From contig CP129476.1 in NCBI GenBank assembly GCA_030583805.1, forward strand, positions 117,453 through 181,452: 64,000 nucleotides of DNA, written 5' to 3'. This DNA comes from Patescibacteria group bacterium. Its GTDB lineage: Bacteria; Patescibacteriota; Patescibacteriia; SG8-24; DYFX01. The notes under the pieces are model-generated. The model saw only the letters and a list, made by a program, of their open reading frames with translations. It did not search any database and had not been told where the DNA came from. The position numbers were made by a program, and so were the translations under genes. Positions 38,246 through 47,499 of the stretch are shown in pieces (within the stretch, counting starts at the first letter, position 1; each line of letters opens with the position of its first letter).

Positions 38246-38767
38246 AGCGGCAAAGACTCCCCGAAAGGGGAGTTTTGCGTTACCTGATGAAGTAGAAAGA
38301 TGCATCAGCGCAGCATCTCGGCATCCTGGCTGCAGTCGTACGGCAAGAGCGATGCGTGCGCCTCTTGTTCGTACGCCATTTCGGTCTCTTCGGACTGTTG
38401 CAGCGCATCGTCGAGCTCCGCCATGAGAGAGCGGTACCCGTCACCAAGCGCGTGCATGAGCTTGTGGAACATGTCTGCGTAGGTTACGAGGAGTGACGCC
38501 TCCTTGCCTTTCCGAAGACGCCCAGCCGCGCCGCTTCTTACAACCGCGGACCGTTTTGTTACCTTTCCCGCGGAAGCCCGTATACATCTGCATGAAACGC
38601 AACACCAAAATCCTCCTCCTCGCCGGCACGGCTGCCAAAAGCCTTGTGCTGGCGTTTACGATGCTGGTTTTTAAGTGAGCAAGAAGCCATTTAAAGCGCG
38701 TATGCTCACGGCTCTTGATTCGGCAGAGGATTGACTTTTAGCAAAATTTGTGCTAGCCTGGTCGGTT

Positions 38768-38983
38768 ATGTCCCGTTACCAGGCTTATCTTTTATCCCGT
38801 ATTTGGGGCGTCCGTCGCCACCATGTTTTGCGGCGCGCGAAATATCGCTGTGAGAAATGCGGAAGCGCGAATCCGCTGCACGTGCACCATAAGACGTACG
38901 AGAATATCGGAAACGAGCCGCTAAAAGACCTTATCGCTCTGTGTGTTGGGTGCCATTCACAGGCGCACGGTTTGCCCGTATAA
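38768..38983 (+). CDS. HNH endonuclease (small, stand-alone)
   Basis: CEKCGS...LHVHHKTYENIGNEPLKDLIALCVGCHSQAH HNH motif. Confidence 0.6.
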   Translation: MSRYQAYLLSRIWGVRRHHVLRRAKYRCEKCGSANPLHVHHKTYENIGNEPLKDLIALCVGCHSQAHGLPV

Positions 38984-39101
38984 TTGAAATACAACTGAAT
39001 AGTTATCCAGAGTACGGTGAGGGATATCGGCCCTACGACCCGTCGGCAACCAGGCTTCGGTCACGGTGCCTCCGACCCGAAAGGGGAAGATAATTCTTGA
39101 A

Positions 39102-39140
39102 TGGACTCTTCCTTGCAGGGGAGAGTTTTTCTCTTTATTA
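39102..39140 (+). terminator. possible rho-independent terminator downstream of HNH gene
   Basis: 8-bp stem ACTCTTCC/GGGGAGAGT (one G-U) followed by TTTTTCTCTTT. Confidence 0.3.
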
Positions 39141-39212
39141 GACGCACAAGAGTCGATATTTATTATGAAATTGACCGGTAAACACGTAATGCGAGTACCG
39201 TGGATAACTCTT

Positions 39213-39244
39213 GTTAAGTTTTGTTATGTCTACTGGTATAATCA
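39213..39244 (+). promoter_or_regulatory. putative promoter of R-M operon with extended -10 (TGgTATAAT)
   Basis: Perfect TATAAT preceded by TGG, 25 nt upstream of the MTase ATG. TTGTTA -35-like hexamers upstream. Confidence 0.35.
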
Positions 39245-39268
39245 GCCTAAAGATTAGGTAAATCTAGC

Positions 39269-40504
39269 ATGAGATTGATCACATTAAGAGAGGCCTCAGA
39301 AATTTTGGGCATGCATCCTAATACGCTTCGGAATTGGGAAAGATCCGGCAGGATTAAGTGCGTAAGGATCGGCGCTCGTGGCGACAGGCGCTTTGATTAC
39401 GACTCACTATTGGAAGTCGTGGGAAACGACCAAAGCTTTAAAAAAAAATATACATTGGTTGATCTTTTTTGCGGATGTGGTGGGCTCTCAAAGGGGTTTG
39501 AAATGACCGGATCGTTTAAAACCATTTTTGGTATTGATAACTGGAAGCCAGCATTGGAAACTTTTGAATTAAACCACCCTGAGGCGAGAGGGGTACAGTG
39601 GTCACTGGAGAAAAGAAATATAGATGCCCTAATTAAAGAGTTGGGTGAGTTTGATGTGGATGTCGTTGTGGGCGGACCACCATGCCAGGGATTCTCATTG
39701 GCAGGGCCTCGAAATTTCAACGACACAAGGAATTCTTTGTACCTCGGTTTCCTAAGGTTTGTTAAACAGACATCTCCCCGAGCTTTCGTTATTGAGAATG
39801 TTCCGGGCCTAGCCTCGCTTTACGGAGGCGTTGTAAAAGACCGGATCATTAAGGAATTCACAAAACTCGGGTACAACGTGATCTCTAAGGTTTTGCTAGC
39901 TTCGGACTATGGAGTCCCACAAAACCGCAGAAGGCTTGTATTCGTTGGAGTAAAGGGTGGAACTTTTAGTTTTCCCAAACCTACGCATGGTGAAAATTTA
40001 AAGCAGAAAATTACAGTGAATGACGCCGTTTCCGATTTGCCGTCATTAAGGAGTGAGTTGGGACAGGAGGTAATGCCTTACGGACAAAGAGTTAAGAATG
40101 AATTCCAAGAGTATTGCAGAAGAAATAGTGATCGGCTACATAATCATGTGGCCGCAAATCACGACGATGCTACCAGAAGAATAATCGCACTTGTTCCCGA
40201 AGGCAAAAATTATAAGTCTTTACCCGAAGTTCTAAGAGGCACGCGCAATTTTCATGTGGCGTGGACGAGGTTCGATGGTAGGTGCCCAGCTCCCACCATC
40301 GATACGGGCCACCGCCATCACTTCCACCACAAGGAAAACAGGGTGCCCACAGTCAGGGAATCAGCACGACTGCAGTCGTTTCCAGATGATTTCATCTTCC
40401 TTTCTTCCAAGACAAATCAATACAAACAGGTTGGAAATGCAGTTCCCCCGCTTTTAGCAAAGCAGATCGCGCTGTCTTTACTGGATTCATTTGATAAAAA
40501 ATGA
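39269..40504 (+). CDS. DNA (cytosine-5)-methyltransferase with N-terminal MerR/excisionase-type HTH domain
   Basis: HTH_17-like N-terminus (MRLITLREASEILGMHPNTLRNWERSGRIKCVRIG). m5C-MTase motifs I DLFCGCGG, IV GGPPCQGFS, ENV, QNRRR, RESARLQSFPDDF, GNAVPP. Confidence 0.9.
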   Translation: MRLITLREASEILGMHPNTLRNWERSGRIKCVRIGARGDRRFDYDSLLEVVGNDQSFKKKYTLVDLFCGCGGLSKGFEMTGSFKTIFGIDNWKPALETFELNHPEARGVQWSLEKRNIDALIKELGEFDVDVVVGGPPCQGFSLAGPRNFNDTRNSLYLGFLRFVKQTSPRAFVIENVPGLASLYGGVVKDRIIKEFTKLGYNVISKVLLASDYGVPQNRRRLVFVGVKGGTFSFPKPTHGENLKQKITVNDAVSDLPSLRSELGQEVMPYGQRVKNEFQEYCRRNSDRLHNHVAANHDDATRRIIALVPEGKNYKSLPEVLRGTRNFHVAWTRFDGRCPAPTIDTGHRHHFHHKENRVPTVRESARLQSFPDDFIFLSSKTNQYKQVGNAVPPLLAKQIALSLLDSFDKK

Positions 40505-40505
40505 C

Positions 40506-41936
40506 ATGAAAAAGATATACAGAGTTCCCGATGAGTATAATTTTCGACTGCACCACATCCGCCCCAGATTCAAAAATGACGTCGAGAACGTCTTGTTTTT
40601 CATGGCTTCTGAAATATCAAAAATTACTCCTGCGCCGGAGGAGGATTTTGCTAGAGAGTTGAACAAGGCTATCAGGCGCTACCCAGGCAATGCCTCCAAA
40701 GCCGAAAAAACAATTGATAATTGGCGGACCGAAATAACGGCTCTCTTTGGATTGATTGAATATGATGGTGAGATCGCAAGGCCCGGGCGAATGGCGAATT
40801 TACTGGCAGAATCTCAGGATTTGATCGAGTTTTTTCGCTATTTCCTATTTTACTTCCAATATCCTGGCGGCCATCTGAAACCCCACGAATCCTTGGAGTT
40901 TATCGAGGCTGGCGTACGTTTTAAACCGGCCAAGTATTTGTTGCAGGTGCTTTTAGATGGGAAAAAGATTTTGGGTGAAAACGCGAAGTTTGGCATAACA
41001 AAAGCCGAGGCTACTCACTGTATTTTTAACGACTTGCGAGTGACGCGTGATGGCCGTCCAGCAAACAAGACTGCCGAGTTGATTATTAGCAATAGAAACG
41101 ATAAGGCCGAATACCCTCAGGGAGGGGATATCGTTCGTTATGCCGGGGACATACTTGACTATATGGTGTTGGCGGATCTCGTTAGACTGAGACCGAACTA
41201 CAAATACTATTTGAATCCAGTGCATTTCGAGACCATACAGGCCTTTGTTGGAAATAATGACTATTTTGAACCATACGAGAGCTTGTATAAGCACGGACAT
41301 CCCTTGTTAGCCAATGTAACGGCATCCAAGGAAGATTGGTTTCATTATGTGAACAACAAACTTGATTCAAGTATATTTGAGGCGGACGCTTTTTCTATCA
41401 TTGAAGAGGCTGGTGAGACAGTTGACAGTGAAAAGGAAAGTTTCTTTATTGGCGAGGTCTTAAAAAAAATCCGGGATCTCAAAGAGTCGGAATCTATTAA
41501 CACCAAGGAGGTTGGAGATGTGGGCGAGGCCATCGTTATCGAACATGAAAAAAATAGAATGATGCGATTGGATCGCGAAAGCCTGCTGCACCTGATTAAA
41601 AAAATTCCAGAATCTTACGCGATGGGTTATGATATAAATTCATTTGAAGGCATCGGAGAAATACGAAGATACATTGAAGTCAAGACGAGTATAAGTCGAG
41701 GAAAACTTGCCGCGCAGTTTTTCCATATGACTCCCAGTGAATGGAGTTCTGCAGAGACGCTTAAGGATACCTACTTTGTGTACCGCTTAATGATCTCGGC
41801 GCAGGGCATCAGCCTTTTTCTAATACAGGATCCAGTTGGAAAATATAAGAGCGACCGCCTGAGCATGGCTCCTCGCGACGGTGCCGACATTCACTACACT
41901 GAGAGATCGGGCAACTGGGAAGAGCTTCTTGTATGA
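40506..41936 (+). CDS. candidate restriction endonuclease: novel N-terminal domain + C-terminal DUF3883 (PD-(D/E)xK-like) domain
   Basis: C-terminal about 150 aa fits the DUF3883 pattern (GDVGEAIVIEHEKNRM...GYDINSFEGIGEIRRYIEVKTS...FFHMTPSEWSSAE...TYFVYRL). Sandwiched between two m5C MTases with ATGA coupling to the downstream gene. Confidence 0.6.
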   Translation: MKKIYRVPDEYNFRLHHIRPRFKNDVENVLFFMASEISKITPAPEEDFARELNKAIRRYPGNASKAEKTIDNWRTEITALFGLIEYDGEIARPGRMANLLAESQDLIEFFRYFLFYFQYPGGHLKPHESLEFIEAGVRFKPAKYLLQVLLDGKKILGENAKFGITKAEATHCIFNDLRVTRDGRPANKTAELIISNRNDKAEYPQGGDIVRYAGDILDYMVLADLVRLRPNYKYYLNPVHFETIQAFVGNNDYFEPYESLYKHGHPLLANVTASKEDWFHYVNNKLDSSIFEADAFSIIEEAGETVDSEKESFFIGEVLKKIRDLKESESINTKEVGDVGEAIVIEHEKNRMMRLDRESLLHLIKKIPESYAMGYDINSFEGIGEIRRYIEVKTSISRGKLAAQFFHMTPSEWSSAETLKDTYFVYRLMISAQGISLFLIQDPVGKYKSDRLSMAPRDGADIHYTERSGNWEELLV

Positions 41937-42922
41937 GAGTGCGAAAAATTAAAATAGCTTCATTTTTTAGTGGATGCGGCGGTATGGATCTCGGTGTCGA
42001 GGGCGGCTTTTCTTTCCTGGAAAAAAAGTATCCTAGACATCCCACACAGACTGTTTTTGCGACTGATTATGATCAGAAAATTTCTGAAATATACAATCAG
42101 AATTTTCTCACCGATATTGTTGTGAAAGATATTAGAAATCTGGACGCTGAAGAAGTGCCAGACCACGATGTTCTTACAGGAGGGTTTCCATGCCAATCTT
42201 TTTCAGTTGTCGCGCAGAATCCGAAACGGCTCGGCTATAAGGATGTTAGAGGGCAACTGTTTTTCGAAATGTGCAGAATTCTGAGAGAGAAGAAGCCCTC
42301 GGTGTTCGTTGGAGAAAATGTAAAGGGCCTTTTGTCGGCGAATGGCGGAGAGGCGTTCCCTCTTGTGATCAAAGAGTTTGAGAATGCCGGTTACCATGTT
42401 AAGCACAAGGTTTTAAATGCGTCCCACTACGGGGTGCCCCAAAAGAGGGAAAGGGTATTTATTGTCGGTTTTCGAAGTAAAAAGGCTTTTGATTCTTTTA
42501 ACTTTCCTAAACCAACGACGGAGAACGGGCCCGTTCCGATTTCTTCCGTTGTCATCCCGGAAAACGAAGTAGAAAAAGTACACTACTTTAGCAAGAAAGC
42601 GATTCAAGGCCTGAGCCGTTCAAAAAATCATAAGCTGATGAATAAGGGCAGGGCCCAAAGATTGGACCAGCCTTGCAACACGGTTGGAGCACATCTGGCT
42701 AAAGTGAGTTTGAATAGCACGGATCCGGTACTCTGTTTAAAAGGAAAGTACCGGATGTTTACGCCACGCGAGGTTGCTCGAATCCAATCCTTTCCCGATA
42801 ATTTTGTGCTTTCCGGGTCGAGAACTGTTAACTATAAGGCGCTGGGTAACGCGGTTGCGCCGGTGGTGATGTGGCATGTGACAAGAGAAATCGTTAAGGC
42901 GCTCGGCGAGTACGGCAAGTAA
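41933..42922 (+). CDS. DNA (cytosine-5)-methyltransferase (second MTase of operon)
   Basis: Motifs FFSGCGG, GGFPCQSFS, ENV, QKRERVF, REVARIQSFPDNF, GNAVAPVV. Confidence 0.9.
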   Translation: MRVRKIKIASFFSGCGGMDLGVEGGFSFLEKKYPRHPTQTVFATDYDQKISEIYNQNFLTDIVVKDIRNLDAEEVPDHDVLTGGFPCQSFSVVAQNPKRLGYKDVRGQLFFEMCRILREKKPSVFVGENVKGLLSANGGEAFPLVIKEFENAGYHVKHKVLNASHYGVPQKRERVFIVGFRSKKAFDSFNFPKPTTENGPVPISSVVIPENEVEKVHYFSKKAIQGLSRSKNHKLMNKGRAQRLDQPCNTVGAHLAKVSLNSTDPVLCLKGKYRMFTPREVARIQSFPDNFVLSGSRTVNYKALGNAVAPVVMWHVTREIVKALGEYGK

Positions 42923-42923
42923 T

Positions 42924-43337
42924 ATGGCCGACATGTTCAGCAAGAAAAGACGGAGTGAAATAATGTCGAAAATTCGCTCAAAAAATACGGGCGCAGAACG
43001 TTTAGTGTTCAGGCATCTTCGTGCAAAAGGGTTGCACTTTCAAAAGCATTATAAAGGCGCTCCAGGCAGCCCTGATATCGCCTTGCCGAAGAAAAAGCTT
43101 GCGGTTTTTATCGACGGGGACTTTTGGCACGGAAGGCATCTGAACCGCCTCTTGGTAAAAGGTACAAAGAACTATTGGGTAATGAAAATCACGACCAACA
43201 TAAAACGGGATCGTCGCCAAAGAGCAGCATTAAAAAAAGGTGGTTGGAAGATCTTAAAGGTTTGGGAAAGCGACCTTAAACGTGTAAGTACAAGGTACGA
43301 CCAGCTATTAAAAGTTGAAAAGTTCATTAAAAACTAA
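42924..43337 (+). CDS. vsr: very-short-patch-repair endonuclease
   Basis: RSEIMSKIRSKNTGAE...PGSPDIALPKKKLAVFIDGDFWHG...GWKILKVWE Vsr signature. Starts 1 nt after the MTase stop. Confidence 0.85.
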   Translation: MADMFSKKRRSEIMSKIRSKNTGAERLVFRHLRAKGLHFQKHYKGAPGSPDIALPKKKLAVFIDGDFWHGRHLNRLLVKGTKNYWVMKITTNIKRDRRQRAALKKGGWKILKVWESDLKRVSTRYDQLLKVEKFIKN

Positions 43338-43339
43338 AA

Positions 43340-43362
43340 ACCCCTTGTGGGGTTTTTAAGTC
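43340..43362 (+). terminator. rho-independent terminator after vsr
   Basis: AAACCCCTTGTGGGGTTTTT: perfect 7-bp GC-rich stem + T-run. Confidence 0.6.
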
Positions 43363-43366
43363 ATCC

Positions 43367-43497
43367 GACGGTAATCTCCCCATCCTTCACCCCCACCTTC
43401 ACCGTCGACTCCTCTTTGACGGTACCTTCCAAGATTTGTAGCGCCAGCTTGTTGAGGATCACGTCCTGAATCAGCCTCTTGAGCGGGCGGTCGCTTT
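43367..43497. repeat. displaced copy of the clpB 3' end (direct repeat partner of 44881-45011)
   Basis: About 131 bp near-identical to the clpB 3' coding end. It contains an in-frame stop and synonymous substitutions (e.g. GTC/ACC vs GTG/ACG for the V and T of ...GEITVG*). Confidence 0.7.
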
Positions 43498-43568: not shown

Positions 43569-44528
43569 GTGAAGAGCAAGTTCATGATGTTGGCTGTGTT
43601 GTGCGCGGTTTGCTCCTGTCGGGCTGATCTCGACTCCACCCCTCAAACCTCGGCGACGAAGATCGTCTTTGAGGATCCGCCGGCGTTGGAGGTGCTGATG
43701 GCCTTCATGGGAGATGCGGGGGTGAGACCGGCAGAGTTCACTTTCAGGGTCGGAGAGAGCATGCGGGGCGGGTTCCGGTTCAATGCGGACGAGTCGCTGG
43801 ATGCTGGCTTGCAGAGGTTCCGGCGGCTGCATGCTGAATTCCTCGCGGCGGCAATTGCCGATGCGGAGACTCACGCCGAGGATCGTTCCGACCGCTGGCG
43901 CAACTTCGTGGTGTTTCTCGAGGATTCCAACGCCTCTCCACAGGTGTGGATCGAGGAAACAGTCATGGGAACACGTGAGGACGCACTTGTTGTCCAGGAT
44001 CTCTTCGGAGGAATCGCGACGGAGAACCCGTCAGTCGACGAGGAAGTCGTGCCGGACAGGATTGTCTACTCGACCTCGCATGAATCCTGGGCTCCATATG
44101 GTGGAACCGCGAAGCTTACGCAGGGTGTTTCGTATCACACCTTCTACTTCAACAACCTGTCTGCCTACGGCAGCACGTCGACGTACGAGCACGAAGCGCA
44201 GGTTTACAATCGTGCCTACGCCGACTACGCGGGGTATTGGAGCAGTAACCTGCCCTACGCGTACTACGACACTCCGTTTTCGGACTCGATCGACGTCTTT
44301 ACGGTTGGTTCTGCCCAAGCTGCTTCCATGGCGACCTACACGCAGTACTATACGTACATGGCGCTGAGTCCTGGTCTGGCGACGAGCGCGACGGTTCGGG
44401 TCAAAGGCCAGCTTGGTCATCGCTCGCCGAGCTGGTGCTACTCGACCTGGTGCATCTTCGCTGACGCGACAACCGGCTCCATGACGACGTTCCTGGCACC
44501 AGTAGAAGGGATCAGTTGGTCTTACTAG
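43569..44528 (+). CDS. secreted Tyr/Ser/Thr-rich lipoprotein-like protein (hypothetical)
   Basis: GTG start with AAGGAGGG RBS (4-nt spacer). Signal peptide MKSKFMMLAVLCAVCSC. Tyr-rich C-terminal half. Confidence 0.5.
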   Translation: MKSKFMMLAVLCAVCSCRADLDSTPQTSATKIVFEDPPALEVLMAFMGDAGVRPAEFTFRVGESMRGGFRFNADESLDAGLQRFRRLHAEFLAAAIADAETHAEDRSDRWRNFVVFLEDSNASPQVWIEETVMGTREDALVVQDLFGGIATENPSVDEEVVPDRIVYSTSHESWAPYGGTAKLTQGVSYHTFYFNNLSAYGSTSTYEHEAQVYNRAYADYAGYWSSNLPYAYYDTPFSDSIDVFTVGSAQAASMATYTQYYTYMALSPGLATSATVRVKGQLGHRSPSWCYSTWCIFADATTGSMTTFLAPVEGISWSY

Positions 44529-44836
44529 ACCTTCGGCGCATTCTTCTTTGAGCGCGCCTCTTTTATTTTCGAAATCACAACCATGACTGCGCTCAGCAGG
44601 AGAGTATTCAACAGAAACGATACCCAGTTGAAACGAGTCGGGTGCTCGCGCACGTCCTCAAGCGGAACTGACTGCTGTTCTGAGTAATCGATGCTTTTTT
44701 CCTGCACTACAAAGGACAGAGGCAGGCCGTACTGATAAACGTTGCTCTTTTCTGAAGAAGCTCTTCGCGGCAAGAAGGCGGTTAGACCGGTAACAAGTAC
44801 CGCAGCAGCAATGATGTAGATGTAAGTTTTCTTCAT
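44525..44836 (-). CDS. small membrane protein (N- and C-terminal TM), hypothetical
   Basis: 103-aa ORF, AT-richer than the background. Overlaps the convergent gene's stop. Confidence 0.45.
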   Translation of the reverse strand: MKKTYIYIIAAAVLVTGLTAFLPRRASSEKSNVYQYGLPLSFVVQEKSIDYSEQQSVPLEDVREHPTRFNWVSFLLNTLLLSAVMVVISKIKEARSKKNAPKV

Positions 44837-44880: not shown

Positions 44881-45011
44881 GGTTCATCCCACCGTAATCT
44901 CCCCATCCTTCACCCCCACCTTCACCGTCGACTCTTCTTTGACGGTACCTTCCAAGATTTGCAGCGCCAGTTTGTTGAGAATCACGTCCTGAATCAGCCT
45001 CTTGAGCGGGC
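44881..45011. repeat. clpB 3' end segment (direct repeat partner of 43367-43497)
   Basis: Forms the genuine C-terminal coding end of clpB. Similarity to the upstream copy ends at ...GAGCGGGCGG. Confidence 0.7.
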
Positions 45012-47499
45012 GGGCGCCGAAGCTGGGGTCGTAGCCTTTTTCGACAAGCAGCTTTTTGGCGGCGGCGGAAACGTCCAGCTTGATGTGCTTGTCCTTGAGA
45101 CGATCCTGCACGCGGGCGAGTTGGACGTCGGCGATCTTCGTCAGGTGTTCCATCTTCAGGGCGTGGAAGACGACGGTTTCGTCGACGCGGTTCAGGAACT
45201 CAGGCTTGAAGGATTGGCGCAGGAGGTTCATGACGCGGTCGTGGAGGGTTTCGTCGGCGCTCTTTTCCTCGTCGGCGTCTTCGAAGCCGATCGCGCCCTT
45301 CTTTTTGCCGAGCTCCAAGATCTCCTCGGAACCGACGTTCGAGGTCATGATGATGATCGTGTTCTTGAAATTCACGACGCGGCCTTTGCCGTCGGTCAGG
45401 CGGCCGTCGTCGAGGATTTGGAGAAGCGTATTGAAGACTTCCGGATGCGCCTTTTCGATTTCGTCGAAGAGGACCACCGAGTACGGGCGGCGGCGGATCT
45501 GTTCGGCGAGTTGGCCGCCTTCGTCGTGGCCGACGTAGCCGGGAGGGGAGCCGATCATGCGGGCGACGGAGTGGCGTTCGCCGTACTCCGACATGTCGAG
45601 GCGCACCATGGCGTTCTCGTCGTTGAACAGGAAGGCCGCCAGCGCTTTCGCCAGCTCGGTTTTACCGACGCCCGTCGGGCCCAGGAAGATGAAGGAACCC
45701 ATCGGACGGGTTTCTTCGCCCACGCCCGCGCGCGAGCGGCGCACGGCGTCGGAGACGGCTTTGATGGCCTCTTCCTGTCCGATCACGCGCTTTGAAAGTT
45801 CGGTTTCGAGCTGCACCAGTTTCTTCAGTTCGGACTCGAGCATTTTGGAAACGGGAATGCCCGTCCAGCGCGAAACGACGTTCGCCACGTCCTCCTCGTC
45901 GACTTCTTCTTTCAGGAAACGATGGCCCTTCTGGAGCTTCTTCAGCGTTTCCTCGGCGGCTTTGAGCGCCTTTTCAGTCTCCGGCACTTGGCCGTAGCGG
46001 ATCTTGGCGGCGAGCTCGAGGTCGCCCTTACGTTCGGCGATGTCGGCTTCCTGCTTCAGCTTGTCGATTTTCTTCTTGCCGTCGCGGATGGCGGAGATGG
46101 CGTCCTTTTCATTCTTCCAGCGGAGTTCCAAGCCGGACGCGCGCTCCTTGGCCTCGGCCAGGAGTTTCTCGACTTCCTTCAAGCGCACTTTGGCGTGCTT
46201 GTCTTCTTCTTTTTCAAGCGCGCGCTTTTCGATTTCAAGCTTGGTGATGCCGCGCTTCAGGGCGTCGAGCTCCTGCGGCTGCGAGTCGATCTGCATGCGG
46301 AGTGCGGAAGCGGCTTCGTCGATCAGGTCGACGGCCTTGTCCGGCAGGAAACGGTCGGTGATGTAGCGGTGCGACAAATTGACTGCCGCGACGATCGCGG
46401 AGTCGGTGATGCGCACGCCGTGGTGCAGGTCGTAGCGTTCTTTGATGCCACGGAGAATCGAGATGGCGTCTTCCGGCGACGGTTCATTGACCGTCACGGG
46501 TTGGAAGCGGCGAGCCAGAGCGCCGTCCTTCTCGATGTGCTTCTGGTATTCCTTGAGCGTGGTCGCGCCGATGCAGCGCAGTTCGCCGCGAGCGAGCGCG
46601 GGCTTCAAAAGGTTCGAAGCGTCCATGGCGCCTTCGGTGCCGCCGGCGCCGACGAGGGTGTGAAGTTCGTCGATAAACAAGATGACGCCGCCGGCCGATT
46701 TCTCGACTTCCTTCATGACGGCTTTGAGACGCTCTTCAAACTCGCCGCGGAACTTGGTGCCGGCGATGAGCGCGCCCAAGTCGAGCGCGACGACGTCTTT
46801 GCCTTTCAGCGATTCCGGCACGTCGCCCGAGACGATGCGCTGCGCCAAGCCTTCGACGATCGCGGTTTTACCGGTGCCGGGTTCGCCGATCAGGGCGGGA
46901 TTGTTTTTGGTGCGGCGCGAAAGGACCTGGATCACGCGGCGGATCTCCTCGTCGCGGCCGATGACCGGATCGAGCTTTTCGGCGCGCGCGAGGCGGGTGA
47001 GGTTGCGCGAATATTTTTCGAGCGCTTGGTAGGTGGCTTCCGGTTCGGTCGACGTCACGCGCTGCGAACCGCGGATGTCCATCAAGACTTTCAAAACGGC
47101 ATCGGTCGTGACGCCCATCTCGGCAAGCAGGGAAGCGGCCTCGTTTTTGGTCTCCATGAGGCCGAGCAAAAGGTGCTCGGTCGAAACGTATTCATCTTTG
47201 AAACGCTCGGCGATCTTGTGCGCTTGGCGGATGGCGCGGTCGAGGTTTTGCGAGACGAAAACCTGGGTCGTGTTGCCGCCCTCGGCCTTTTTCGGCGCCT
47301 CCAGCCTGGCGCGCTTCAAGACGGCCGCCGGATCGATCCCCAGTTTTTTAAAAACGGAAACAACCACGCCCTCTTCCTGGCGAAGGAGCGTGCTGAGCAG
47401 GTGGTTGGCCTCCAAGACCTGGGAACCGGCCTCAAAAGCCAGGTTTTGAGCCTCCTGGAGGGCTTCGAGGGCTTTGGTCGTAAAGCGGTTTTGTTGCAT
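44884..47499 (-). CDS. clpB: ATP-dependent chaperone ClpB
   Basis: 871 aa. N-domain [21 protein letters not shown]. Two AAA+ modules ([16 protein letters not shown]) and a coiled-coil middle domain. Confidence 0.95.

What the first reader, a model, noticed from the sequence alone, without database searches (positions are those of the whole stretch)
39269..43337. Undescribed R-M operon: HTH-fused m5C MTase, DUF3883 nuclease, second m5C MTase, Vsr
Four genes are translationally coupled. The stop of the first MTase (40504) lies 2 nt before the nuclease start. ATGA overlaps occur at 41933-41936, and vsr starts 1 nt after the second MTase stop. The block sits inside a visibly AT-richer stretch. 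Two different C5-cytosine methyltransferases bracketing one nuclease is the arrangement used by type IIS systems with asymmetric sites such as HgaI, where each MTase modifies one strand. The nuclease has no similarity I can recognise to characterised REases apart from a C-terminal DUF3883 fold. The vsr gene fits m5C-dependent T:G mismatch repair that normally accompanies Dcm-like methylation. The combination HTH-MTase / DUF3883-REase / MTase / Vsr appears uncharacterised.
Basis: partly seen in the sequence, partly recalled or inferred. Interest (0 to 1): 0.78.

Follow-up and report, generated by a model that had tools for sequence, protein, structure and literature searches.

The report
BpuJI-type restriction-modification cassette
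This is a horizontally acquired four-gene restriction-modification cassette whose nuclease belongs to the already characterised BpuJI family of type IIS restriction enzymes, so it is a new member of a known kind and not an undescribed system.

Summary
Four tightly packed genes (39269-43337, + strand) lie in a 44-46% GC block inside a ~60% GC Patescibacteria genome.

The claim that the system is undescribed does not hold. The middle protein matches Pfam BpuJI_N over the full model (E = 1.2e-95). It keeps the catalytic YD...EVK motif of R.BpuJI and models onto the BpuJI recognition-domain crystal structures. The published BpuJI system has the same layout: one R gene flanked by two m5C methyltransferase genes. 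All 32 related loci I fetched, from many phyla, keep the M1-R-M2 order. The HTH fusion on M1 (5 of 27 loci) and Vsr (5 of 32 loci) are optional add-ons, each with precedent in other R-M systems.

The recognition site is unknown. One BpuJI recognition helix is conserved (N67). The other differs (Q208 becomes Arg).

New context: the cassette (~39139-43360) sits in a clpB-pirin interval that carries other restriction systems in sister genomes. It landed directly downstream of a host-native SAM-I riboswitch (39000-39096). A 97%-ClpB relative has the same riboswitch without the cassette, and no related cassette has one, so the pairing looks accidental.

Verdict: new member of a known kind, low interest.

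The parts
39139..43360 (+). Extent of the acquired R-M cassette (about 4.2 kb, no mobility gene)
   Evidence: Homology to the empty-site relative L034 stops at window 39138 and resumes at 43371. GC drops to 0.38-0.48 inside.
39234..39242 (+). Candidate extended -10 promoter element (TGGTATAAT) of the cassette. Short palindromes such as CCTAAAGATTAGG (39246-39258) follow it.
   Evidence: Read by eye; palindromes listed. Not picked up by the consensus scan and not conserved in other HTH-M1 loci. Inference only.
39269..40504 (+). M1: N-terminal HTH (about residues 1-50) fused to a C5-cytosine DNA methyltransferase
   Evidence: PF12728 HTH_17 E = 3.8e-8 and PF00145 E = 1.9e-70. Motifs FCGCGG, PPCQ, ENV, QNRRR and GNAV are intact.
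40506..41936 (+). R: BpuJI-family type IIS restriction endonuclease (N-terminal recognition domain, C-terminal PD-(D/E)XK nuclease)
   Evidence: PF11564 BpuJI_N 1-278/278 E = 1.2e-95; PF13020 NOV_C E = 4.5e-12. PDB 2VLA/5HLT E about 7e-22. Foldseek top four hits are BpuJI. YD376...E392VK394.
41933..42922 (+). M2: second, different C5-cytosine DNA methyltransferase
   Evidence: PF00145 E = 7.7e-76; TIGR00675 282 bits. Motifs FSGCGG, PCQ, ENV, QKRER and GNAV are intact. 52-74% identical to the M2 of all related loci.
42924..43337 (+). Vsr-type T:G mismatch nicking endonuclease (zinc-site-less subtype)
   Evidence: TIGR00632 112.8 bits, above the 97.85 cut-off. PDB 1CW0 E = 4.9e-19. The D51, H69 and D97 equivalents are kept; the four Zn ligands are replaced.
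43334..43359 (.). Hairpin terminator directly after the vsr stop codon
   Evidence: Terminator scan, 11-bp stem; reported on the - strand, and the palindromic stem has T-runs on both sides.
38956..39138 (+). Host-native S-box leader abutting the cassette: promoter-like site (38956-38984), SAM-I aptamer (39000-39096), intrinsic terminator (39103-39138)
   Evidence: Rfam RF00162 49.6 bits against a gathering score of 44.4. Promoter 11 of 12 matches and terminator with an 11-bp stem. The same leader is in L034, which has no cassette.
43361..43494 (-). Duplicated 3' end of clpB (134 nt, 95% identical to 44884-45017), marking the original clpB end next to the cassette
   Evidence: Direct repeat D1. 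blastn to the clpB 3' ends of relatives. The independent Logan contig breaks inside it.

Best explanation
The block is a self-contained type IIS restriction-modification cassette of the BpuJI family, acquired horizontally by a Patescibacteria genome.

Inferred mechanism, by homology to R.BpuJI: the nuclease binds a short asymmetric DNA site through its N-terminal two-winged-helix recognition domain. This relieves autoinhibition of its C-terminal PD-(D/E)XK nuclease, which is related to archaeal Holliday-junction resolvases, and that domain then cuts unmodified DNA near the site in a Mg2+-dependent reaction. M1 and M2 are two different C5-cytosine methyltransferases, and each is expected to methylate one strand of the asymmetric site to protect host DNA. 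Vsr nicks the T:G mismatches left by deamination of the resulting 5-methylcytosines, which limits the mutagenic cost. The HTH fused to M1 probably lets M1 repress the operon's own promoter, as M.SsoII and M.Ecl18kI do.

Tight or overlapping gene junctions suggest that all four genes are co-transcribed and translationally coupled.

The cassette sits in a variable clpB-pirin interval that holds other restriction systems in sister genomes. It landed immediately downstream of a host SAM-I riboswitch leader, whose terminator most likely just insulates it from upstream transcription.

Shown here: domain identities, intact motifs, gene order and its conservation, insertion boundaries, and the host origin of the riboswitch. 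Inferred: enzymatic activities, strand assignment of the two MTases, autoregulation, and the recognition sequence, which may or may not be CCCGT.
For: Nuclease identity: BpuJI_N over the full model at E = 1.2e-95, plus NOV_C; PADLOC REase_II E = 5e-34; sequence hits to BpuJI structures; Foldseek top four hits are BpuJI recognition domains, target-normalised TM 0.78-0.82; catalytic YD376...E392VK394 matches BpuJI YD348...E367VK369, whose alanine mutants lose catalysis.

Architecture: BpuJI has one R gene flanked by two m5C MTase genes (PMC1874659). M1-R-M2 is kept in all 32 related loci that are not truncated, across Patescibacteria, Chloroflexi, cyanobacteria, Bacteroidota, Campylobacterales and an archaeal MAG, and on an Acinetobacter plasmid. 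All MTase motifs are intact. Vsr is above the TIGR00632 cut-off.

Acquisition: GC is 0.44-0.46 against 0.60. The empty site is seen in L034 (ClpB 97%), with homology breaking at 39138 and 43371. The same interval holds a type I R-M system plus Fic in L036, and MrcB_N-HNH plus a DpnI-like gene in L037.

Riboswitch is host-native: it is present in L034 without the cassette and absent from all 32 related cassettes.

Precedent for HTH-MTase autoregulation: PMC3978073 and PMC2760811.
Against: No activity has been measured for any of the four proteins. The N-terminal domain is only 29% identical to BpuJI, and the residue aligned with BpuJI Q208, which is essential for DNA binding, is Arg, so the site cannot be assumed to be CCCGT. 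The C-terminal nuclease domain was modelled with low confidence (pLDDT below 50 in parts), so its fold rests on Pfam and the motif alone. No operator shared between HTH-M1 loci was found. There are no clear Shine-Dalgarno sequences before R, M2 or vsr. Six ACGGG and one CCCGT occur inside the cassette, and CCCGT is not avoided in host DNA; both facts are neutral.
Confidence: 0.85

Rival explanations
1. The host SAM-I riboswitch has been co-opted, so that read-through from the S-box leader makes expression of the R-M operon respond to SAM, the methyl donor of both MTases.
For: A full leader (promoter, aptamer above the Rfam gathering score, terminator) ends about 130 nt before the M1 start, on the same strand, with no ORF supported by homology or a gene call in between (a 63-aa ORF at 39066-39257, overlaps the leader and has no support). 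The aptamer is about 97% identical to that of L034, while neighbouring DNA is about 75% identical, so it is still under constraint or only recently separated. No paper in the library links SAM riboswitches to R-M systems.
Against: The riboswitch is present at the same place in L034 without any R-M genes, where it precedes a small ORF. None of the 32 related cassettes has a SAM riboswitch. The cassette seems to carry its own promoter element. An OFF switch that raises nuclease and MTase expression when SAM is scarce has no obvious benefit.
Confidence: 0.1
2. The middle protein is not a classical restriction enzyme but a DUF3883/NOV_C nuclease of another defence type (as in PD-T4-1, TmtA or PDC-S36), and the two MTases are unrelated neighbours.
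For: The C-terminal domain alone hits PADLOC PD-T4-1, TmtA and PDC-S36 models at E = 1e-7 to 1e-17. The BpuJI paper notes that this nuclease domain occurs in many contexts.
Against: The full-length best PADLOC hit is REase_II. The N-terminal 279 residues are a complete BpuJI recognition domain. The nuclease is flanked by the same two MTase orthologues in every related locus.
Confidence: 0.03
3. The cassette is a decaying or partly inactive remnant, for example MTases kept as orphans with a dead nuclease.
For: No experimental data. The cassette is a singleton, with its closest relative only 71% identical.
Against: All four ORFs are full length relative to their homologues, and every catalytic motif checked is intact.
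Confidence: 0.05

Closest known systems
BpuJI restriction-modification system of Bacillus pumilus RFL1458 (type IIS, site 5'-CCCGT; PMC1874659; PDB 2VLA)
   Same: Same two-domain nuclease: a BpuJI_N recognition domain plus an AHJR-like PD-(D/E)XK domain with the YD...EVK motif. Same gene order, M1-R-M2, with two m5C methyltransferases. The N67-containing recognition helix is conserved (TLDNHRTEI against TIDNWRTEI).
   Different: Only 29% identity in the recognition domain. The residue equivalent to Q208 is Arg and the surrounding helix differs (SMQHIREQLNY against DIVRYAGDILDY), so the site may differ. This cassette adds an HTH on M1 and a vsr gene, neither of which is reported for BpuJI in the paper I read.
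HgaI-type type IIS systems
   Same: One nuclease plus two separate m5C MTases for an asymmetric site. The BpuJI paper states this is the typical type IIS layout.
   Different: No sequence relationship between the nuclease and HgaI was tested or found. The family assignment is BpuJI, not HgaI.
M.SsoII / M.Ecl18kI (m5C MTases with an N-terminal DNA-binding region that regulates their own R-M operon; PMC3978073, PMC2760811)
   Same: An N-terminal HTH region of about 55-70 residues fused to an m5C MTase inside an R-M system.
   Different: Here the genes are co-directional, not divergent. No operator was identified. The fusion is present in only 5 of 27 related cassettes.
E. coli Vsr (very-short-patch repair endonuclease; PDB 1CW0/1VSR)
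   Same: Scores above the TIGR00632 cut-off. The D51, H69 and D97 equivalents are conserved. Genetic linkage to m5C MTases, as with dcm-vsr.
   Different: All four zinc ligands (C66, H71, C73, C117) are replaced and H64 is Asp, both here and in the other cassette-linked Vsr proteins.

Membership tests
BpuJI-family type IIS restriction endonuclease | N-terminal BpuJI-type DNA recognition domain (two winged-helix subdomains) | tested here: met
   PF11564 positions 1-278 of 278, E = 1.2e-95. phmmer to 2VLA/5HLT E about 7e-22. Foldseek top four PDB hits are BpuJI, target-normalised TM 0.78-0.82.
BpuJI-family type IIS restriction endonuclease | C-terminal PD-(D/E)XK nuclease with the catalytic YD...EVK triad (BpuJI D348, E367, K369) | tested here: met
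   YD376, E392, V393, K394 are present and invariant in 26 homologues (D376, E391, V392, K393 listed, which numbers these one lower). PF13020 NOV_C E = 4.5e-12. The fold itself was not confirmed: pLDDT is below 50 there, and Hjc hits reach only E about 0.4.
BpuJI-family type IIS restriction endonuclease | R gene flanked by two m5C methyltransferase genes (M1-R-M2) | tested here: met
   Window layout. The same order holds in all 32 related loci that are not truncated. Published layout of BpuJI.
BpuJI-family type IIS restriction endonuclease | Recognises 5'-CCCGT | tested here: inconclusive
   The N67 equivalent is conserved (N72), but the Q208 equivalent is R211 and that helix differs. Both helices are invariant within the clade. 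No depletion of CCCGT in host DNA. Needs biochemistry or methylome data.
BpuJI-family type IIS restriction endonuclease | Mg2+-dependent cleavage near the site; dimer activated by binding cognate DNA | not testable with these tools
   Biochemical property described in PMC1874659.
Type IIS R-M with strand-specific MTase pair | Two distinct MTases, each modifying one strand of an asymmetric site | tested here: inconclusive
   Two distinct, intact m5C MTases are shown (29-31% mutual identity). Strand specificity is not testable here.
Vsr mismatch endonuclease | Family HMM above the curated cut-off and catalytic Asp/His/Asp present | tested here: met
   TIGR00632 112.8 bits against 97.85. D51, H69 and D97 equivalents are conserved.
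Vsr mismatch endonuclease | Structural zinc site (E. coli C66, H71, C73, C117) | tested here: not met
   Replaced by D, R, L and S. The site is also absent in five cassette-linked homologues. This is a feature of the E. coli enzyme; whether it defines the family is not established here.
SsoII-like self-regulating HTH-MTase | N-terminal DNA-binding domain fused to the m5C MTase | tested here: met
   HTH_17 E = 3.8e-8 and MerR E = 6.3e-7 at residues 4-49. Homologous fusions occur in L005-L008 and L012.
SsoII-like self-regulating HTH-MTase | Operator in the promoter region of the R-M genes | tested here: inconclusive
   Only short 5-bp-arm palindromes in the window, and no palindrome shared with other HTH-M1 loci.
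SAM-I riboswitch-controlled gene | Aptamer above the Rfam gathering score followed by an expression platform | tested here: met
   RF00162 49.6 bits against 44.4, full model. A terminator at 39103-39138 follows.
SAM-I riboswitch-controlled gene | Conserved association between the riboswitch and the downstream gene family | tested here: not met
   0 of 32 related cassettes have it. The same riboswitch is present in L034 without the cassette.

The most novel reading that the evidence does not exclude
By landing directly behind a host S-box leader, the cassette has become the first restriction-modification operon whose transcription is partly gated by a SAM riboswitch, tying nuclease and methyltransferase dosage to the availability of the methyl donor.
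Probability: 0.1. Interest if true: 0.6.

Novelty: new member of a known kind. Interest (0 to 1): 0.22.

Why it matters
It matters mainly as a correction and for annotation. A widespread clade of BpuJI-like type IIS systems is labelled only 'DUF3883 domain-containing protein' in public records and could be renamed. The family comprises 863 clusters at 50% identity, common in Patescibacteria and also found in other phyla and on a plasmid.

The clade's invariant recognition helices differ from BpuJI in one of the two DNA-reading elements. A cloned member could therefore yield a new type IIS specificity of some use as a reagent.

The clpB-pirin interval is a clear example of a defence hotspot in candidate-phyla-radiation bacteria. 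The accidental placement behind a SAM riboswitch is a small natural experiment in regulatory capture. None of this challenges current understanding.

Tried and rejected
1. SAM riboswitch as a conserved part of the cassette: rejected. Rfam scans of all 32 related loci found none, and the relative L034 has it without the cassette.

2. tRNA or integrase as the integration signature: no tRNA in the window and no mobility gene in the cassette.

3. Shared operator for the HTH: no common palindrome upstream of the six HTH-M1 genes. A recurring TATTATGAA-like word in the window and L012 was seen by eye only and not tested.

4. Inferring the recognition site from k-mer avoidance: CCCGT/ACGGG has observed/expected 0.95, rank 190 of 512. 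Uninformative.

5. Exact-sequence look-ups of the small HNH protein, to find other strains: not on record.

6. Phage collection: no homologue of the nuclease.

7. Fold confirmation of the nuclease domain: the model is too uncertain there.

8. The base-contact list of BpuJI from the 2008 structure paper is not in the library. Only the N67 and Q208 mutant data were available, second-hand.

9. I ran no further search on retrieving the original BpuJI operon, because it would not change the verdict.


Full report
**Observation**

- 39269-40504, 411 aa
- 40506-41936, 476 aa
- 41933-42922, 329 aa
- 42924-43337, 137 aa

The junctions are as described. A single base separates the M1 stop (TGA 40502-40504) from the ATG at 40506. 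An ATGA overlap sits at 41933-41936. A single base separates the M2 stop (TAA 42920-42922) from the vsr ATG at 42924. GC content is 0.44-0.46 across 39-43 kb, against about 0.60 on both sides.

**What the genes are**

- **M1.** It carries an N-terminal HTH (PF12728 HTH_17, E = 3.8e-8; MerR, E = 6.3e-7; residues 4-49) fused to a C5-cytosine methyltransferase (PF00145, E = 1.9e-70).
- **M2.** It is a second PF00145 enzyme (E = 7.7e-76). It is only 29-31% identical to M1.
- **Motifs.** Both MTases keep motifs I, IV (PCQ), VI (ENV), VIII and X.
- **Vsr.** The last gene scores 112.8 bits on TIGR00632, above the 97.85 cut-off, and aligns with E. coli Vsr structures.

The middle protein is the key point. 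Its residues 5-279 match Pfam BpuJI_N over the whole model (1-278 of 278, E = 1.2e-95), and residues 340-431 match NOV_C/DUF3883 (E = 4.5e-12). PADLOC's best full-length hit is a type II restriction enzyme model (E = 5e-34). It hits the BpuJI recognition-domain crystal structures by sequence (2VLA and 5HLT, E about 7e-22). An AlphaFold model has mean pLDDT 67.5, with an acceptable N-terminal domain and a poor C-terminal domain. That model finds the four BpuJI entries as its best PDB matches (target-normalised TM 0.78-0.82), followed by the type IIS enzymes Nt.BspD6I and FokI.

**Comparison with the characterised system**

The paper on R.BpuJI (PMC1874659) reports the following:

- The enzyme recognises the asymmetric site 5'-CCCGT.
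- It has an N-terminal DNA-binding domain.
- It has an autoinhibited C-terminal PD-(D/E)XK nuclease related to archaeal Holliday-junction resolvases.
- The catalytic motif is YD348...E367VK369, confirmed by alanine mutants.
- A single bpuJIR gene is flanked by bpuJIM1 and bpuJIM2, both 5-methylcytosine MTases.

The window protein has YD376...E392VK394, and these residues are invariant in 26 homologues. The gene order M1-R-M2 is identical. The nuclease therefore belongs to a structurally and biochemically characterised restriction-enzyme family. The type IIS reading is right, but the 'undescribed' claim is not.

**Distribution**

- The nuclease has more than 2,000 relatives in the word-indexed search. 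The closest non-self hit is 71% identical. Records are either unnamed or called 'DUF3883 domain-containing protein'.
- An exhaustive search of 50%-identity representatives gives 863 clusters at E <= 1e-3 and 93 at E <= 1e-30.
- Thirty-two loci from species-representative genomes were fetched. They come from Patescibacteria/Saccharibacteria, Chloroflexi, cyanobacteria, Bacteroidota, Campylobacterales and a Bathyarchaeota MAG.
- Every locus that is not truncated has M1-R-M2 in the same order. Identities are 46-71% for R, 50-56% for M1 and 52-74% for M2.
- The HTH fusion occurs in 5 of 27 loci (L005-L008, L012). Vsr occurs in 5 loci: downstream in L010, L011, L027 and L030, and upstream in L017.
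- A small Acinetobacter plasmid carries the same triad.

So the core is a mobile three-gene module, and the HTH and Vsr are optional accessories. Each accessory has precedent:

- M.SsoII and M.Ecl18kI regulate their own operons through an N-terminal DNA-binding region (PMC3978073, PMC2760811).
- Linkage of vsr to dcm-type MTases is textbook knowledge.

**Specificity**

BpuJI N67A and Q208A lose DNA binding (cited in PMC9240713). In a family alignment, N67 lies in TLDNHRTEI, which is TIDNWRTEI here (N72). Q208 aligns with R211, in a helix that differs from BpuJI. Both helices are essentially invariant across the clade despite 46-71% overall identity. The clade therefore probably shares one recognition sequence, but it need not be CCCGT. 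K-mer statistics on the host DNA are uninformative (observed/expected 0.95).

**Insertion site**

ClpB homologues identified sister genomes, and the clpB-pirin interval differs in each:

| Genome | ClpB identity | Content of the clpB-pirin interval |
|---|---|---|
| L034 | 97% | Only small genes |
| L036 | 96% | Type I R-M system plus Fic |
| L037 | 86% | MrcB_N-HNH plus a DpnI-like gene |
| Window | - | BpuJI-like cassette |

The interval is therefore a defence hotspot. blastn places the homology break at window 39138 on the left and at 43371 on the right, which bounds a 4.2-kb cassette with no mobility gene.

Right of the cassette lies a hairpin terminator. After it comes a 134-nt copy of the clpB 3' end (43361-43494, 95% identical to 44884-45017). 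A strain-specific 1.39-kb segment with two unannotated ORFs separates this copy from the intact clpB. An independent Logan assembly of the locus breaks inside this repeat.

**The riboswitch**

Rfam finds a SAM-I riboswitch at 39000-39096 (49.6 bits against a gathering score of 44.4). A strong promoter-like site (38956-38984) precedes it and an intrinsic terminator (39103-39138) follows it. The terminator ends exactly where the cassette begins.

This could have meant SAM-gated restriction-modification, so I tested the idea in two ways:

- None of the 32 related cassettes has a SAM riboswitch.
- L034 has the same leader at the same position with no R-M genes. There it precedes a 63-65-aa ORF of unknown function.

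The riboswitch and the small HNH gene upstream of it are therefore host features, and the cassette replaced whatever followed them. Functional capture cannot be excluded, but nothing points to it. I give it about 10%.

**Verdict**

This is an intact, horizontally acquired BpuJI-family type IIS R-M cassette with two common accessories, sitting in a defence hotspot. It is a new member of a known kind. The residual interest lies in a possibly new specificity and in the accidental riboswitch juxtaposition.

Noticed in passing
window 38956-39138; L034 12860-13000 (- strand): A host-native SAM-I riboswitch leader (promoter, aptamer, terminator) lies convergent with clpB. In relative L034 it precedes only a 63-65-aa ORF with no Pfam match. 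The aptamer is about 97% identical between the two genomes, while flanking DNA is about 75% identical. What this riboswitch controls in this lineage is unknown.
   Followed up: partly
window 43361-43494 and 44884-45017; segment 43495-44883: The clpB 3' end is duplicated as a 134-nt direct repeat (95% identical). The copies bracket a 1.39-kb strain-specific segment with a 319-aa ORF (43569-44528, +, no Pfam hit) and a 103-aa ORF (44525-44836, -, no Pfam hit). It looks like a second insertion that regenerated the clpB end; no integrase is present.
   Followed up: partly
L034 12617-15060; L036 12617-22450; L037 2809-5392: The interval between clpB and the pirin/Zn-ribbon genes is a variable defence hotspot in sister Patescibacteria genomes. 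One has type I HsdRSM plus Fic, another has MrcB_N-HNH plus a DpnI-like gene, and a third has only small genes.
   Followed up: partly
window 42924-43337; L010 8419-8832, L011 3717-4112, L027 5214-5612, L030 1455-1862, L017 4514-4870: All Vsr proteins linked to this cassette family lack the four zinc ligands of E. coli Vsr (C66, H71, C73, C117) and have Asp in place of H64. They keep D51, H69 and D97, which suggests a zinc-less Vsr subtype.
   Followed up: partly
window 38750-38983; L034 13015-13272: A small HNH-domain ORF (77-85 aa, PF01844 just above its cut-off) is conserved upstream of the riboswitch in both genomes but was not called as a gene in either public annotation.
   Followed up: partly
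L033 10811-11749 (window 41984-42922): The public gene call for M2 on the Logan contig (312 aa) starts 17 codons too late and removes methyltransferase motif I. The 41933 start is supported by homologue alignments.
   Followed up: yes
proteins P0244 (751 aa) and P0257 (667 aa): Some family representatives are much longer than about 476 aa. One has roughly 275 extra N-terminal residues before a full BpuJI-like region, which hints at fusion variants.
   Followed up: no
window about 39153-39170; L012 upstream of 3143: A TATTATGAA-like word recurs upstream of the HTH-M1 genes in the window (once) and in L012 (twice). It may be a binding site for the HTH. Seen by eye only.
   Followed up: no
L002 2167-2389; L014 2537-2673: A group I intron (50.1 bits, right at its gathering score) and a LOOT RNA (53.8 bits) lie a few kb upstream of related cassettes. 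They are probably unrelated neighbours.
   Followed up: no
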